Below are positions 17,899 to 26,800 of a stretch of DNA of 64,000 nucleotides, piece after piece. The stretch is from Octopus sinensis. Lineage: Eukaryota. Numbering within the stretch: the stretch's first letter is position 1; every line of letters starts with the position of its first letter. The DNA lies in assembly GCF_006345805.1 (NCBI RefSeq), contig NW_021832404.1, forward strand, positions 1 through 64,000. Reading direction: 5' to 3'. A program made the position numbers.

Positions 17899-20800
17899 TT
17901 ATATATATATATACAGAAAGCGAGAGAGAAAGATAAAGAAAGAAAGAAAGGAAGGAAGGAAGGAAGAAGAAAGAAAGAAAGAGAGGATAGTTATAATCCT
18001 GACAATCGCCTCAGTACATGCTAAATCTTGGCTACGGTAGTATTCCACAATCAAAAGGAGATCCGTAAGATTTCGATTGATATAAGTAAGAACCCTATAC
18101 AACTCTAAAATCCAGTGGGATTAAAATAAACCCACAGAATGAAGAATGTGTGGGGGAGTGTCTATATGTGCGTGTGTGCGTGTGTGTGTATTTATCTATG
18201 TATGTGTGTCATTCCGTTTGTGTTAGTCTCTCACCACCGCTTGGCAACCACCGTTGGTTTGTATGCGTCCCCGTTAGTTAGCCGTTTCGGCATAAGAAGC
18301 CGACAGAATAAGTACCAAACCTTAAAAAATATATAAATATTGGGGTCGATTCGACTAAAACCTTCCAAGACAGTGTCCCAGCAAAGCCGCATTCCAATGA
18401 CTGATACACGTAAACCGTAACAGAAAAGGATGCTAAAAACAGCTGGATTTAACATTTCCAGCTGACACAGGAATAAAATTTGGCCAAAAGAAGTGTTAGT
18501 AATTGATTATTGAACGTTGAAAATCACTCCCCCAGACACAAAACGGTCCCTTTATCTCTGTCGGCACCCTCTTTGATCTCTTTCGACACCCGCTTTGATC
18601 TCTTTCGGTACTCCTCTTTCATCTCTGTCGGCACACGCTTTGATCTTTGTCAGTACTCCTCTTCGGTCACTGTCGACACCCTCTTTAATCTCTTTCGGTA
18701 CTCCTCTTTGATCTCTGTCGGCACCCTCTTTGATCTCCTTCGACACCCTCTTTGATCTCTTTCGGCAGCCTCTTTGATCTCTGATCGAAAGAGATCAAAG
18801 AGGGTGTCGACAGACATCAAAGGGGTTGCCGACAGAGACCAAAGAGGAGTACCGAAAAAGATCTCCTTCGGTACTCCTCTTTCATCTCTGCCGACATCAT
18901 CTTTGATCTTTTTCGGCACTCCTCTTTGATCTCTGTCGGCACACTCTTTGATCTATGTCGGCAACTTCTTTGATATTTTTCGGTACTCCTCTTTGATCCC
19001 TGTCGGCCCTTCTTTGATCTCTTTCGGCACCCTCTTTGATCTCTGTCGGCACTCTCTTTGATATCTGTCGGCACCTTCTTTGATCTTTTCGGTACTCCTC
19101 TTTCATCTCTTTCGGCACACTCTTTGATCTATGTCGGCACCCCATTGATCTTTTTCGGTACTCCTCTTTGGTCTCTGTCGGCAAGCTCTTTGATCTCTGT
19201 CGGCACCCTATTTGATCTCTTTCGACAACCTCTTAGATCTCTTTCGGCACTCCTTTTTCATCTCTTTCGGCATTCCTCTTTGATCTCTTTCGGCACCCTA
19301 TTTGATCTCTGTAGGCATCCTCTTTGATCTCTGTCGGTACACTATTTGATCTTTTTCGGTACTCCTCTTTGATCTCTGTCGGCACCGTCTTTGATCTATG
19401 TCGGCCCCTCTTTGATCTATTTCGGCACCTCTTTGATCTCTGTCGGCCCTTATTTAATCTCTTTCGACACCCTCTTTGATCTCTGTCGGCACCCTCTTTG
19501 ATCTCTGTCGGCACATTCTTTGATCTTTTTCGGTACTCCTCATTCATCTCTTTCGGCACTCTTTGATCTCTGTCGGCACCTCTTTGATCTTTTTCGGTAC
19601 TCCTCTTTGGTCTCTGTCGGGACCATCTTGACATTTGAACCGGTTCGATCAGGTTTGAACCAGTTTGAACCGGTTTGATCCGGTTTGAACCGGTTTGATC
19701 GGTTTGATCCGGTTTGAACCGGTTTGAACCGGATCAAACCGGTTCAAACCGGTTCTTTGATCTCTGTCGACACCGTCTTTGATCTCTGACATTCCTGACA
19801 TTCCTGACATTCCTGACATTATAGACATTCCTGACATTCCAGACATTCCTGACATTCCAGACATTCCTGACATTCCAGACATTCCTGACATTCCGGACAT
19901 TCCAGACATACGAACCGGTTCGATCAGGGTTGATCAAATTTGAACCGATTTGATCCGGTTTCAACCGGTTTGAACCGGTTTGAGCCGGTTTGATCCGGTT
20001 TGATTCGGTTTGTACCGGTTTGTCGGTACCGTCTCTGATCTTTGTCGGCACACTCTTTGATCTCTGTCGGAACCGTCTTTGATCTTTGCCGGCACACTAT
20101 TTGATCTCTGACGGCACCGTCTTTGATCTCTGTCGGCACCGTCTTTGATCTCTGTCGGTACCGACTTTGACCTCTGACATTCCTGACATTCCAAACATTG
20201 CAGACATTGCAGACATTGCAGACATTGCAGACATTGCAGACATTCCTGACATTCCGAACATTCCAGACATTCCTGACATTCCTGGCATTCGAGACATTCC
20301 TGATATTCCGAACATTCCAGACATTCCTGGCATTCAAGACATTCCAGACATTCCAGACATTCCTGACATTCCAGACATTCCTAACATTCCAGACATTCTA
20401 GACATTCCTGACATTCCCGACATTCCCGACATTCCAAACATTCCTGACATTCCTGACATTCCAGATATTCCTGACATTCCAGATATTACTGACATTCCAG
20501 ATATTCCTGACATTCCAGACATTTCAGATATTCCTGACATTCCAGACATCCCAAACATTCCAGCTATTACTGACATTCCTGACATTTATGATATTCCTGA
20601 AATTCCAGACATTCCAGACATTCCTGAAATTCCTGGCATTCGAGACATTCCTGACATTCCAGACATTCCTCGTTTATCTCTGTCGGCACCGTCTTTGATC
20701 TCTGTCGGCACCGTCTTTGATCTCTGACATTCCTGACATTCCAAACATTCATGACATTCCAGACATTCCTGACATTCCAGACATTCCTGACATTCCAGAC

Positions 20801-23800: not shown

Positions 23801-26800
23801 ACTCTTTGATCTCTGACATTCCTGACATTCCAGACATTCCTGACATTCCTGACATTCTAGACATTCCTGACATTCCTGACATCCAGACATTCCGAACATT
23901 CCAGACATTCCTGGCATTCCAGACATTCCTGACATTCCGAAAATTCCAGACATTCCTCTTTGCCGACAGAGATCAAAGAGGAGTACCGACAGAGATCAAA
24001 GAAGGTGCCGACAGAGATCAAAGAGGGTCCCCATAGAGATCAAAGAGGGTGCCCACAGAGATCAAAGAGGAGTACCGACAGAGATCAAAGAAGGTGCCGA
24101 CAAAGATCAAAGAGGTTGCCCACAGAGATCAAAGAAGGTGCCGAAAGTGATCAAAGAGGAGTTCCGAAAAAGATCGAAGAGGAGTACCGAAAGAGATCAA
24201 AGAGGGTACCGACAGAGATCAAAGAGGTACCGAAAGAGATCAAAGAGGACTACCGAAAGAGATCAAAGAATGTGCCGACAGAGATTAAAGAGGGTGCCGA
24301 AAGAGATCAAAGAAGGGCCGACAGAGATCAAAGAGGAGTACCGAAAATGATCAAAGCTGGTGTCTCTGTCGGCACCTCTGATCTCTGACATTCCTCACAT
24401 TATAAACATTCTTGACATTACAGGCATTCCTGACATTCCAGCCATTCCTGACATTACAGACATTCCTGACATTCCAGACATTCCTGACATTCCAGACATT
24501 CCTGACATTCCGAAAATTCCAGACATTCCTGACATTACTGGCTTTCCAGACATTCCTGACATTCCAGACATTCCTGACATTCCTGACATTCCTGACATTC
24601 CAGTCATTCCTGACATTCCACACATTCCTGACATTCCAGACATTTCAGATATTACTGACATTCCAGACATTCCAGAAATCCTGATATTCCTGACATTCCT
24701 GACGTTCCAAACATTCCAGACATTCCTGACATTCCTGACATTCCTGACATTTGAACCGGTTCGATATGGCTTGATCCAGGTTGAACCGGTTTGATCTGGT
24801 TTGATCCGGTTTGAACCGATTTGATCTGGTTTGAACCGGTTTGATACGGTTTGAACCGGTTTGATCCGGTTTGATCCGTTTCAACCGGTTTGATCCGGTT
24901 TCAACCGGTTTGATCCGGTTTAATCTGGTTTATCGGCACCGTCTTTGATCTTTGTCGGCACAAACGTTGATCTCTGACATTTCTGACATTCCAGACATTC
25001 CTGACATTTCAGACATTCCTGACATTCCAGACATTCCTTACATTCCAGACATTCCCGACATTCAAGACATTCCAGACATTCCAGACATTCCTGACATTCC
25101 TGACATTCCAAACATTCCTGACATTCTAGTCATTCCTGACATTCCACACATTCCTGACATTCCAGACATTTCAGATATTACTGACATTCCAGACATTTTA
25201 GAAATCCTGACATTCCTGACATTCCAAACATTCCAGACATTCCTGACATTCCTGACATTCCTGACATTTGAACCGGTTCGTTATGGCTTGATCCAGGTTG
25301 AACCGGTTTGATCTGGTTTGATCCGGTTTGAACCGATTTGATCTGGTTTGAACCGGCTTGATCCGGTTTGATCCGGTTTCAACCGGTTTGATCCGGTTTA
25401 ATCCGGTTTATCAGCACCGTCTTTGATCTTTGTCGGCACAAACTTTGATCTCTGACATTTCTGACATTCCAGACATTCCTGACATTTCAGACATTCCTGA
25501 CATTCCAGACATTCCTTACATTCCAGACATTCCCGACATTCCCGACATTCCCGACATTCCAGACATTCCTGACATTCCAGACATTCCTGACATTCCTGAC
25601 ATTCCAAACATTCCTGATATTCTAGACATTCCTGATATTCCAGACATTCCTGACATTCCAGATATTCCTGACATTCCAGACATTCCAGAAATCCTGAACA
25701 TTTCAGGGAGGAGGATTTGAAGGTGAAGGTAAGGAATGGGAAGAAGGAATATTTAACATTCCAGGGAGGGGGATTTGAAGGTAAAGGGGAGGAATGGGAA
25801 GAAGGAATATTGATCATTCCAGAGAGAGGGATTTGAAGGTAAAGTGGAGGAATGGGAAGAAGGAATATTGAACATTCCAGAGAGGGGGATTTGAAGGTAA
25901 AGGGGAGGAAAGGGAAGAAGGAATATTGAACATTGCATAGGGGGGGTTTGAAGGTGAAGGGGAGGAATGGGAAGAAGGAATACGGAACATTCCAGAGAGG
26001 GAGATTTCAAGGTAAATTGAGGAATTGGAAGGAGGAATATTGAACATTCCAGAGAAAGGGATTTAAAGAGAAAGGGGAGGAATGGGAAGAAGGAATATTG
26101 AACATTCCAGAGAGGGGGATTTGAAGGTAAAGGGGAGGAATGGGAAGAAGGAATATTGAACATTCCAGGGAGGAGGATTTGATGGTGAAGTTAAGGAATG
26201 GGAAGAAGGATTATTGAACATTCCAGAGAGGGGGATTTGAAGGGAAGGGGGAGGAGTGGGAAGATGGAATATTAAACATTCCAGAGAGGGGGATTTGAAG
26301 GTGAAGGGGAGGAAGGGGAGGAAGGAACATTGAACATTGCAGAGAGGGGGATTTGAAGATGAAGGGGAGGAATGGGAAGAAGGAATATTGAACATTCCAG
26401 AGAGAGGGATTTGAAGGTAAAGGGGAGGAATGGGAAGAAGGAATATTGAACATTCCAGAGAGGGGGATTTAAAGGTGAAAGGGAGGAAGGGGTGGAAGGA
26501 ATATTGAACATTCCAGAGAGGGGGATTTTGAAGGGGAAGGGGAGGAAGGGGAGGAAGGGATACTGAACATTCCAGAGAGGGGGATTTGAAAGTGATCGTG
26601 AGGAAGGGGAGGAAGGAATATTGAACTTCCATCCGGGAGGGGGATTTGAAGGTGAAGGGGAGGAAGTGGAGAATGGAATACTTTACATTCCAGAGAGGGG
26701 GAATTGAAGGTAAAGGGGAGGAATGGGAAGAAGAGAATATTTAACCTTCAAGAGAGGGGGATTTGAAGGTGAAGGTAAGGAATGGGAGAAAGGAATATTG

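What the first reader, a model, noticed from the sequence alone, without database searches (positions are those of the whole stretch)
18548..25697. Composite satellite built from three arrays of signalling-TF binding sites (TCF+Helper, Grainyhead/CP2, TEAD)
Seen: 7 kb made of only three short units. Known: CTTTGATC is the TCF/LEF HMG site, AACCGGTT the Grainyhead/TFCP2 site, and RCATTCCWGR the TEAD site. Each unit matches one of these. The 9-bp and 10-bp periods equal the known cooperative spacings for TEAD and CP2, and in A a Helper-like RCCG lies beside every HMG site. Major polymorphisms fall on degenerate motif positions (W in TEAD, R in RCCG). Inference: this may be a natural multimerised Wnt/Hippo/Grainyhead response platform (super-enhancer, TF sink or nuclear-body seed) at the edge of a large satellite. 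By my rough length-based estimate it holds on the order of 100+ A, 100+ B and 300 C sites.
Basis: partly seen in the sequence, partly recalled or inferred. Interest (0 to 1): 0.9.

Follow-up and report, generated by a model that had tools for sequence, protein, structure and literature searches.

The report
Composite satellite carrying transcription-factor motifs
A 7-kb stretch made of three short tandem repeats sits at the edge of a large satellite, and its units spell binding sites for three signalling transcription factors; it looks like ordinary repeat turnover, although the 9-base array is a plausible docking platform for one of those factors.

Summary
Window 18549-25694 consists almost entirely of three unit families: A (22/23 bp, about 129 units, both orientations), B (10 bp, about 124 units) and C (9 bp, about 329 units). 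The motif strings are really there: CTTTGATC 95 times, AACCGGTT 39 times, RCATTCCW 215 times.

The anatomy is that of a higher-order satellite. A B-A-C module recurs eight times. Blocks of about 1.18 kb are 98-99.7% identical, while neighbouring units are only 74-88% alike. There are also fold-back inversions.

The units are not independent. C shares a 10-mer with the adjacent 58-bp satellite and runs into it in register. A and B share TTTGATC...ACCG.

Tests for constraint on the motif cores are equivocal or negative. The long Helper consensus is absent.

Human HSat3 is a TEAD platform, and C has exactly the 9-bp spacing of the canonical Tead double motif, with 168 instances.

Verdict: an ordinary composite satellite. 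Factor binding is plausible for TEAD, but it is untested and need not be selected.

The parts
18549..19629 (+). Array of about 49 A units (22/23 bp). It mixes the 22-bp subtype CTTTGATCTCTGTCGGCACCCT with the 23-bp subtype that ends in TTTTCGGTACTCCT. It is the most diverged array (74% matches).
18786..18862 (-). Fold-back: a reverse-complement copy of 18688-18764 (77 nt, 91% complementary, 21 nt between the arms). The whole of 18680-18870 folds as one hairpin.
   Evidence: I1; -74.8 kcal/mol against -21.4 +/- 3.0 in 200 shuffles, z -18
19632..19913 (+). Module M1: B array (its last units, 19725-19757, are flipped), two A units, then a C array of about 15 units.
19911..20833 (+). Module M2: B array, six to seven A units (20024-20170), C array of about 55 units (20172-20667), 2.5 A units (20668-20726), and C again.
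20829..21223 (+). Module M3: B array, two A units, C array. With M4 it forms a 419-bp period.
21217..22429 (+). Module M4: B, two A units, C, an inverted A array (21724-22203, about 22 units on the - strand), a short A+ stub, then C.
22425..23574 (+). Module M5: B, two A units, C, an inverted A array (22780-23178), an A+ stub, then C.
23569..24754 (+). Module M6: a near-copy of M5, with the inverted A array at 23959-24356. The blocks are 97.8-99.7% identical to those of M5.
24748..25271 (+). Module M7: B, two A units (one damaged), then C.
25265..25694 (+). Module M8: B, two A units, then C. This last C array holds the longest run of intact sites at exact 9-bp steps (14 sites from 25491) and passes in register into the 58-bp satellite.
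25695..63983 (+). 58-bp satellite of about 670 monomers, with 116/174-bp higher orders and a purine-rich + strand. It carries ACATTCCAGA, the 10-mer shared with the C dimer. It runs to the end of the window.

Best explanation
This is an ordinary composite satellite, organised in higher-order repeats, that sits at the border between repeat-rich and transposon-rich DNA and a large 58-bp satellite.

Shown. Three short units were amplified into arrays. A compound module (B array, two A units, C array; 0.4-0.5 kb) was then copied eight times in tandem. Three copies carry an inverted A array, and the last duplication of about 1.18 kb is very recent. Fold-back inversions flipped pieces of A and B.

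Inferred. The processes at work are replication slippage, unequal crossing-over and template switching. The C unit arose from, or recombined with, the ACATTCCAG part of the 58-bp monomer. A and B are diverged relatives that share TTTGATC...ACCG. On this reading the resemblance of the units to TCF, Grainyhead/CP2 and TEAD sites needs no selection. If factors do bind (most plausibly the animal's TEAD protein on the C arrays), I expect passive titration on heterochromatin-like DNA, as on human HSat3, and not a signal-responsive enhancer.
For: Copying as modules: seven of the eight B-to-A-to-C junction stretches align with the same order of unit variants in six of them. M1, which holds a flipped part, was left out of that alignment. 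Higher-order signature: M5 against M6 gives 1,136 matches, 22 mismatches and 41 gap columns (98.1%), and their sub-blocks are 97.8-99.7% identical. Units inside arrays match at only 74-88%. Inversions: a 77-nt fold-back, and A- arrays that are 82-85% complementary to the A+ array over 440-500 bp. Kinship of units: the C dimer shares the 10-mer ACATTCCAGA with the 58-mer, and 13 of 2,000 shuffles score as well. The CCGT variant of A against the B dimer is matched by 16 of 2,000 shuffles, and against the 30-bp B period by 8 of 2,000. The last C array enters the first 58-bp monomer in register. No sign of site-level selection: the number of intact sites equals the product of the per-position frequencies, with A 95 observed against 94 expected and C 238 against 238. 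The B core is no better kept than the rest. [quoted passage not shown] No gene, structured RNA or tRNA was found in 1-26 kb.
Against: Three of three units carry a perfect 8-base consensus of a signalling factor. Only about 1% of shuffled units hold any of the three strings, so the triple match is not trivial even after a rough look-elsewhere correction. In A the 8-bp window CTTTGATC is the least variable of 22 cyclic windows, and this holds in each of the five larger A arrays. In C the ATT of the core is nearly invariant (0.9-2.1% minor), and recent differences between paralogous modules fall in the core less often than its length predicts: 11 of 35 against an expected 67%. That count is confounded by register shifts between T and A units. 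The C period is exactly the cooperative Tead double-motif spacing. Satellites that function as TEAD platforms or depots do exist in human cells. The kinship of the commoner CCCT form of A with B is only marginal (90 of 2,000 shuffles). Chromatin state and chromosomal position are unknown.
Confidence: 0.7

Rival explanations
1. TEAD depot or platform of the HSat3 kind. The C arrays, perhaps together with the CATTCC-bearing 58-bp satellite, load the animal's TEAD/Scalloped protein cooperatively. They act as a buffer or condensate seed with measurable consequences for Hippo output. A and B may add TCF and Grainyhead/CP2 pools.
For: There are 238 RMATTCC sites and 168 overlapping RMATTCC-NN-RMATTCC double motifs, with runs of up to 14 sites at exact 9-bp steps. 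The double motif is bound cooperatively with strict spacing, and the contact region is described as conserved across evolution (passages). Human HSat3 binds TEAD1-4 and recruits YAP (abstract and sections 5 and 10). Clustered MCAT motifs in pericentromeric heterochromatin seed TEAD1 depots, and 4xMCAT DNA enhances condensation in vitro (abstract and sections 11 and 14). The ATT of the core is nearly invariant in C, and AACATT is the least variable 6-mer of the 58-bp monomer.
Against: There are no occupancy or chromatin data. Only about 3 kb of C lies in the window, against megabases of HSat3. The CC of the core, which is essential for TEAD, varies as much as the flanks: 10.2% and 7.6% minor against 11.6% and 6.1%. 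Intact sites are no more frequent than independent decay predicts. The 9-bp spacing follows automatically from a 9-bp unit. The 58-bp satellite has no double motif at all, 0 at spacings of 0-7.
Confidence: 0.15
2. One reading: a selected, multimerised Wnt/Hippo/Grainyhead response platform, that is, a super-enhancer acting on nearby genes.
For: All three consensus strings are present in high copy. RCCG lies 3-9 bases from 73 of 98 CTTTGAT sites. The periods fit the CP2 and Tead double-motif spacings. CTTTGATC is the least variable window of A.
Against: The long Helper consensus and the fly HMG consensus are absent, 0 matches each. The B palindrome is broken in most units. The units are related to each other and to the neighbouring satellite. 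The arrays were copied as blocks very recently, so most 'sites' are copies and not independently maintained. No gene was detected within 18.5 kb on the left, and 38 kb of satellite lies on the right. The conservation of the A core is explained by six linked subtype positions.
Confidence: 0.04
3. A conserved 'box' in the A unit (CTTTGATCT) is bound by a satellite-specific or HMG-box chromatin protein, as the CENP-B box is in alpha satellite (the CENP-B comparison is recalled, not from a call). It would serve heterochromatin or centromere-related packaging and not signalling.
For: Positions 1-9 of A have 0.8-10.8% minor letters in all arrays, against 18-40% at six other positions. The same TTTGA(T/A)C stretch is kept in B.
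Against: Once the subtype positions are set aside, the rest of the unit is as invariant as the box, 0.050 against 0.039. The probability that six variable positions all miss a given 8-bp window is 0.040 if they are independent, but they are linked. There are no protein data.
Confidence: 0.05
4. Assembly artefact: a mis-joined or collapsed repeat region whose block order does not exist in the genome.
For: Near-identical 1.18-kb blocks and inversions are hard to assemble.
Against: The junctions between unit families are the same in six to seven modules, and the modules differ by whole-unit indels, as real arrays do. Divergence is graded, 74% to 99.7%. Reads were not available to check.
Confidence: 0.03

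Closest known systems
Human Satellite 3, (GGAAT)n, as a TEAD/YAP binding platform and TEAD1 depot (bioRxiv 10.1101/2024.10.22.616524; Nat Cell Biol 2026, PMC13335116)
   Same: Both are tandem satellite DNA whose unit contains the TEAD core GGAATG/CATTCC at very high density. Both have motifs of several factor families in one satellite.
   Different: Here the core sits in a 9-bp unit, in one orientation only, at the double-motif spacing. It covers about 3 kb in the window, not megabases. It is interleaved with two other unit families. The organism is not human and is probably an invertebrate. No binding, imaging or chromatin evidence exists.
Tead double motif of Hippo-responsive enhancers (Cell Genomics 2025, PMC12008814)
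   Same: Direct repeats RMATTCC-NN-RMATTCC with a 9-bp period, which two TEAD molecules bind cooperatively. The region holds 168 overlapping instances.
   Different: Enhancers carry one double motif next to sites for other factors. Here there are uninterrupted runs of up to 14 sites in a satellite, with no partner motifs and no gene context.
Higher-order-repeat satellites such as primate alpha satellite (recalled, not from a call)
   Same: Diverged short units (74-88% alike) are packaged in longer blocks that are nearly identical (98-99.7%). Arrays change by whole-unit indels. Inversions occur at array borders.
   Different: The higher-order unit is built from three unit families of different length (22, 10 and 9 bp), not from variants of one monomer.
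Satellites bound by transcription factors in heterochromatin: mouse major satellite (PAX3, PAX9, FOXD3), HSat3 with HSF1, GA/CT repeats with GAGA factor, Ikaros
   Same: Factor motifs inside tandem repeats, with binding linked to silencing, stress bodies or sequestration and not to enhancer action (passages of PMC9324158; discussion of PMC13335116).
   Different: Those cases rest on experiments. Here there are only motif matches.
Synthetic multimerised reporters for Wnt and Hippo signalling (recalled, not from a call)
   Same: Many copies of one consensus site set head to tail.
   Different: Reporters place a few sites before a minimal promoter. Here there is no promoter or gene, the arrays are degenerate, and they lie in satellite DNA.

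Membership tests
Higher-order-repeat satellite DNA | Head-to-tail arrays of short units | tested here: met
   Arrays of 22-, 10- and 9-bp units tile 18550-25702. Unit counts are about 129, 124 and 329.
Higher-order-repeat satellite DNA | Long blocks are more alike than neighbouring units | tested here: met
   M5 against M6 is 98.1% identical overall, and sub-blocks are 97.8-99.7% identical. Units inside arrays match at 74-88%.
Higher-order-repeat satellite DNA | Heterochromatic, pericentromeric or subtelomeric location | not testable with these tools
   Only the window is available. It abuts at least 38 kb of 58-bp satellite.
TCF/LEF Wnt response element with Helper site | HMG site CTTTGWWS (abstract of PMC4267635, listing) | tested here: met
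   48 on the + strand and 50 on the - strand.
TCF/LEF Wnt response element with Helper site | Invertebrate HMG consensus SCTTTGWSWW (PMC4154663 passages) | tested here: not met
   0 matches on either strand.
TCF/LEF Wnt response element with Helper site | Helper site of six to seven bases (RCCGCC, GCCGCCR, GCCGCY) near the HMG site | tested here: not met
   0 matches for each form. Only the 4-base RCCG is present, 3-9 bases from 73 of 98 CTTTGAT sites.
TCF/LEF Wnt response element with Helper site | Response to beta-catenin, and a target gene | not testable with these tools
   No gene was found in 1-18.5 kb with ORF, Pfam, Rfam or tRNA scans. Spliced genes could have been missed.
Grainyhead / CP2 binding site | Palindrome AACCGGTT, bound by a Grainyhead dimer (PMC5829564 passages) | tested here: inconclusive
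   39 perfect sites in about 124 units. Position 6 is T in 69 and A in 51 of 121 units. The two bases the paper calls most conserved are kept in 88% and 87% of units.
Grainyhead / CP2 binding site | CP2 tetramer site CNRG-N5/6-CNRG | tested here: met
   65 matches with N6 on the + strand inside 1,266 bp of B blocks. The pattern is of low information: it also occurs 15 and 11 times in the left flank.
Grainyhead / CP2 binding site | Core kept better than non-core positions | tested here: not met
   The motif window ranks 7 of 10 cyclic windows. The minor fraction is 0.148 inside and 0.099 outside.
TEAD platform of the HSat3 or clustered-MCAT kind | Dense GGAATG/CATTCC cores in tandem repeats | tested here: met
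   237 CATTCC in about 2.96 kb of C arrays, and 460 + 318 in the 58-bp satellite.
TEAD platform of the HSat3 or clustered-MCAT kind | Double-motif spacing RMATTCC-NN-RMATTCC | tested here: met
   168 instances at spacing 2, and 0 at spacings 0, 1 and 3-7. There are none in the 58-bp satellite.
TEAD platform of the HSat3 or clustered-MCAT kind | TEAD occupancy, foci, and an effect on Hippo output | not testable with these tools
   This needs ChIP, CUT&RUN or DAP-seq, imaging and perturbation.
Super-enhancer | Open chromatin, co-activator and H3K27ac load, and a linked gene | not testable with these tools
   No chromatin data are available and no gene was found nearby.

The most novel reading that the evidence does not exclude
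The C arrays are natural concatemers of the canonical Tead double motif: 168 overlapping instances, with runs of up to 14 sites at exact 9-bp steps. On this reading they load the animal's TEAD/Scalloped protein cooperatively and seed a depot or condensate at the edge of a CATTCC-bearing satellite. That would be an invertebrate counterpart of human HSat3 that arose independently. The interleaved A and B arrays would hold TCF and Grainyhead/CP2 pools in the same body.
Probability: 0.12. Interest if true: 0.75.

Novelty: new member of a known kind. Interest (0 to 1): 0.3.

Why it matters
If the ordinary reading is right, the region is a clear worked example of how a composite higher-order satellite is built at an array border by slippage, block duplication and fold-back inversion. 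It is also a caution that short repeat units readily spell factor consensus sites. If the bolder reading is right, then CATTCC-type satellites that titrate TEAD would not be peculiar to great apes but a recurrent solution in animals. The C array would then be a natural template for studying cooperative TEAD loading at the double-motif spacing.

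Tried and rejected
1. Coding reading. In one frame GAC ATT CCW reads Asp-Ile-Pro under the standard code. I rejected this without a dedicated call. The would-be third positions 3, 6 and 9 have minor fractions of 0.094, 0.009 and 0.505, with no codon-like pattern apart from W. The 22/23-bp and 10-bp arrays break any frame.

2. A relic 58-bp monomer at the left border (18380-18548). 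The best local score is reached by 116 of 500 shuffles, so it is not significant.

3. Kinship of B or A with the 58-mer (552 and 926 of 2,000 shuffles) and of C with A or B (1,158 and 1,991 of 2,000). None is significant.

4. BLAST self-comparison to define the long repeats. Its alignments slide along the short periods, so I replaced it with global alignments of defined blocks.

5. Counting recent differences between paralogous modules by unit position. A had 2 core of 6, B 10 of 10, and C 11 of 35. One further mismatch of the 52 could not be assigned. The C result is confounded because aligning a T unit to an A unit creates mismatches at the variant positions, so I give it little weight.

6. 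Rfam (0 matches in 1-26,500), tRNA scan (0) and Pfam on six flank ORFs (0 families). No gene context emerged.

7. Naming the organism. A homology search of the retroelement ORF gave two unnamed proteins. I did not pursue their origin.

8. Literature. Searches for octopus or cephalopod satellites returned nothing relevant among the 14 and 15 papers listed. Searches for five verbatim strings of the units and of the 58-mer found 0 papers.

9. Related arrays in other genomes were not looked for. Whether orthologous arrays exist therefore stays unchecked.

10. The supplementary list of the 42 HSat3-enriched motifs in the HSat3 preprint could not be seen. It might show whether TCF or Grainyhead motifs are also among them.

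Full report
WHAT IS THERE. The sequence of 18000-26400 and Tandem Repeats Finder show that 18550-25702 is tiled by arrays of three periods. The 22-bp arrays have the consensus CTTTGATCTCTGTCGGCACCCT, with secondary periods of 45, 67 and 89. The 10-bp arrays are TTTGAACCGG or TTTGATCCGG, with a secondary period of 30. The 9-bp arrays are GACATTCCW, with secondary periods of 18 and 36.

From 25695 to 63983 a 58-bp satellite follows, with 664.7 copies and higher orders of 116 and 174 bp. A 12-mer classifier splits 18549-25694 into 39 A, B or C blocks with nothing else between them. Wrap-around alignment gives about 128.6 A units (2,830 bases), 124.4 B units (1,244 bases) and 329 C units (2,961 bases).

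Exact strings were counted as follows:
- CTTTGATC occurs 95 times (46 on +, 49 on -), against 5.87 expected from dinucleotide shuffles of the window.
- AACCGGTT occurs 39 times, against 0.42 expected.
- CATTCC occurs 237 times and RCATTCCW 215 times, all on the + strand.
- RCATTCCWGR occurs 182 times.

The window has no N. I do not take it for human. It is rich in microsatellites and carries a retroelement fragment. A SINE-like stretch at 18230-18420 reminds me of a cephalopod SINE, but that is recall and was not tested.

ARCHITECTURE. After a first A array (18549-19629), the region consists of eight modules, each made of a B array, about two A units and a C array. Three modules (M4-M6) also hold an inverted A array: 21724-22203, 22780-23178 and 23959-24356.

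I aligned the B-to-A-to-C stretches of seven modules. M1 was left out because part of it is flipped. Six of the seven show the same order of unit variants and the same junction sequences, and they differ mainly by whole-unit indels. The mean column identity is 79%. The arrays are therefore copies of one ancestral module and not independent arrays.

The latest duplication is very recent. Block 22780-23958 against 23959-25136 gives 1,136 matches, 22 mismatches and 41 gap columns (98.1%). Sub-blocks are 97.8-99.7% identical. Units inside arrays match at only 74-88%. That contrast is the signature of a higher-order-repeat satellite.

Inversions are of the fold-back type. Segment 18786-18862 is a reverse-complement copy of 18688-18764 (77 nt, 91% complementary, 21 nt apart). 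The stretch 18680-18870 folds into one hairpin of -74.8 kcal/mol, against -21.4 +/- 3.0 for 200 shuffles. The end of the first B array also flips, at 19725-19757. The inverted A arrays are 82-85% complementary to the first A array over 440-500 bp.

THE UNITS ARE RELATED. The C dimer and the 58-bp monomer share the 10-mer ACATTCCAGA, and 13 of 2,000 shuffles of the C dimer score as well. The last C array passes in register into the first 58-bp monomer at 25695. The 58-bp satellite itself has about 670 monomers, and its least variable 6-mer is AACATT.

A and B share TTTGATC followed by ACCG. The CCGT variant of A against the B dimer is matched by 16 of 2,000 shuffles, and against the 30-bp B period by 8 of 2,000. 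The commoner CCCT form is matched by 90 of 2,000. No kinship shows between B or A and the 58-mer, or between C and A or B. So the 'three arrays' reduce to about two lineages, and one of them is tied to the neighbouring satellite.

Yes, according to the papers I read:
- The Wnt response element is CTTTGWWS and the Helper motif is RCCGCC (abstract of PMC4267635, in the listing).
- The fly Helper is GCCGCCR, the short vertebrate form is RCCG, functional human ones share GCCGCY, and the fly HMG site is SCTTTGWSWW (passages of PMC4154663).
- Grainyhead-like factors bind AACCGGTT as dimers, and CP2 binds CNRG-N5/6-CNRG as a tetramer (passages of PMC5829564).
- All TEAD factors share the core GGAATG (section 5 of the HSat3 preprint).
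- MCAT is CATTCCT, and TEAD binds tandem MCAT sites cooperatively (passages of PMC5876656).
- The 'Tead double motif' is RMATTCC-NN-RMATTCC with strict spacing (passages of PMC12008814).

In the region, CTTTGWWS occurs 48 + 50 times. RCCGCC, GCCGCCR, GCCGCY and SCTTTGWSWW each occur 0 times. The 4-base form lies 3-9 bases from 73 of the 98 CTTTGAT sites. CNRG-N6-CNRG occurs 65 times inside the B blocks, but it also occurs 15 and 11 times in the left flank, so it carries little information. RMATTCC occurs 238 times. The double motif at spacing 2 occurs 168 times, and there are none at spacings 0, 1 or 3-7. Runs reach 14 sites at exact 9-bp steps.

IS THE MATCH MORE THAN CHANCE? Against the three pre-named strings it is: only 174-194 of 20,000 shuffled units hold any of them. 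But the motifs were chosen after seeing the units.

Here is my own extrapolation, not a test. At about 0.3% per motif family per unit, a library of 828 profiles (the number used) would give on the order of one full match per unit once redundancy is allowed for.

Two empirical pointers agree with this. [quoted passage not shown] Second, other simple repeats of this same window also spell familiar cores:
- 15 and 18 GATA-type sites in (TATC)n and (AGAT)n
- 41 GAGAG in (GA)n
- 328 AGGAAG in the 58-bp satellite

Those three motif strings are recalled from memory. Three perfect 8-mers in three units is still somewhat more than I would expect.

DO SUBSTITUTIONS SPARE THE CORES?

A: CTTTGATC is the least variable of the 22 cyclic 8-bp windows, with a minor fraction of 0.039 against 0.148 outside it. 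This holds in each of the five larger A arrays. The excess outside comes from six positions (10, 12, 17, 19, 20, 21), most of which co-vary in a 23-bp subtype. Without them the remaining non-core positions have 0.050. Six independent positions would all miss a given 8-bp window with probability 0.040, and linkage makes that weaker still.

B: the motif window ranks 7 of 10. Position 6 is T in 69 and A in 51 of 121 units. Position 8 is T in 22 of 121.

C: CATTCC ranks 3 of 9 and differs little from the two other low windows, which also avoid W. ATT is nearly invariant, but the two C positions (10.2% and 7.6% minor) vary about as much as flank positions 1 and 2 (11.6% and 6.1%). W is not a free polymorphism: T and A alternate in 193 of 262 successive pairs, which makes an 18-bp dimer.

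Intact sites are as frequent as independent decay predicts in A (95 against 94) and in C (238 against 238). They are more frequent in B (39 against 23). Differences that arose since the modules were copied fall in the core in 2 of 6 cases for A, 10 of 10 for B and 11 of 35 for C. One further mismatch of the 52 was unassigned. The low C figure is confounded by register shifts between unit variants.

All these counts are dominated by shared ancestry among copied blocks. Taken together they are equivocal for A and C and negative for B.

PRECEDENT. Human Satellite 3 is reported to carry millions of factor motifs, to bind TEAD1-4 and to recruit YAP (abstract and sections 5 and 10). Clustered MCAT motifs in pericentromeric heterochromatin are reported to seed transcriptionally silent TEAD1 depots, and 4xMCAT DNA enhances condensation in vitro (abstract and sections 11 and 14). 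A review also lists PAX3, PAX9, FOXD3 and HSF1 acting on satellites (passages). I found no paper describing this satellite. Searches on octopus and cephalopod satellites gave nothing relevant among the papers listed, and five verbatim strings were found in 0 papers.

VERDICT. The best-supported account is an ordinary composite, higher-order satellite at the edge of a large satellite. It was built by slippage, block duplication and fold-back inversion, and its units happen to spell three signalling-factor sites (confidence 0.7). A signal-responsive enhancer platform is unlikely (0.04). The long Helper is absent, the B palindrome is mostly broken, most sites are recent copies, and there is no gene context. 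A TEAD depot of the HSat3 kind on the C arrays is the reading worth testing (0.15), because the spacing is exactly that of the cooperative double motif. Chromatin state, occupancy, chromosomal position, copy number elsewhere in the genome and orthologous arrays all stayed unchecked, because no eukaryotic genome collection was open to me.

Noticed in passing
window 25695-63983: A 58-bp satellite of about 670 monomers with 116/174-bp higher orders runs off the end of the window. It has extreme strand asymmetry (GC skew about 0.74, AT skew about 0.34) and CpG observed/expected of 0.11, against 0.75 in the composite region. Its least variable part is AAGGAATATTGAACATT, an imperfect palindrome around GGAAT...ATTCC.
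   Followed up: partly
window 10762-11289 (+): An open frame of 175 aa is 62% identical over 148 aa to the C-terminal part of an unnamed 334-aa protein. That protein's N-terminus matches reverse transcriptase RVT_1 below the curated cut-off (26.7 against 29.6 bits). This is a retroelement fragment. By recall it looks like the endonuclease end of a Penelope-like element.
   Followed up: partly
window 18230-18420: A SINE-like stretch lies directly left of the first A array. By recall it resembles an abundant cephalopod SINE. There was no tRNA or Rfam match, and the resemblance was not tested.
   Followed up: no
window 11695-12886: A very long (ACCA)n microsatellite of 299.5 copies (1.2 kb). The whole left flank (1-18 kb) is unusually dense in di-, tri- and tetranucleotide repeats.
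   Followed up: no
window 14718-14905: A 70-bp tandem repeat of 2.7 copies with 93% matches and an internally palindromic look (GGCGACTGT...ACAGTCGACGCC).
   Followed up: no
window 19632-25410 (B arrays): The B units place a TTT run every 10 bp, close to the helical repeat, and the A units place one every 22 bp. Phased T runs like these usually give intrinsically bent DNA. This is inference only; no curvature calculation was run.
   Followed up: no
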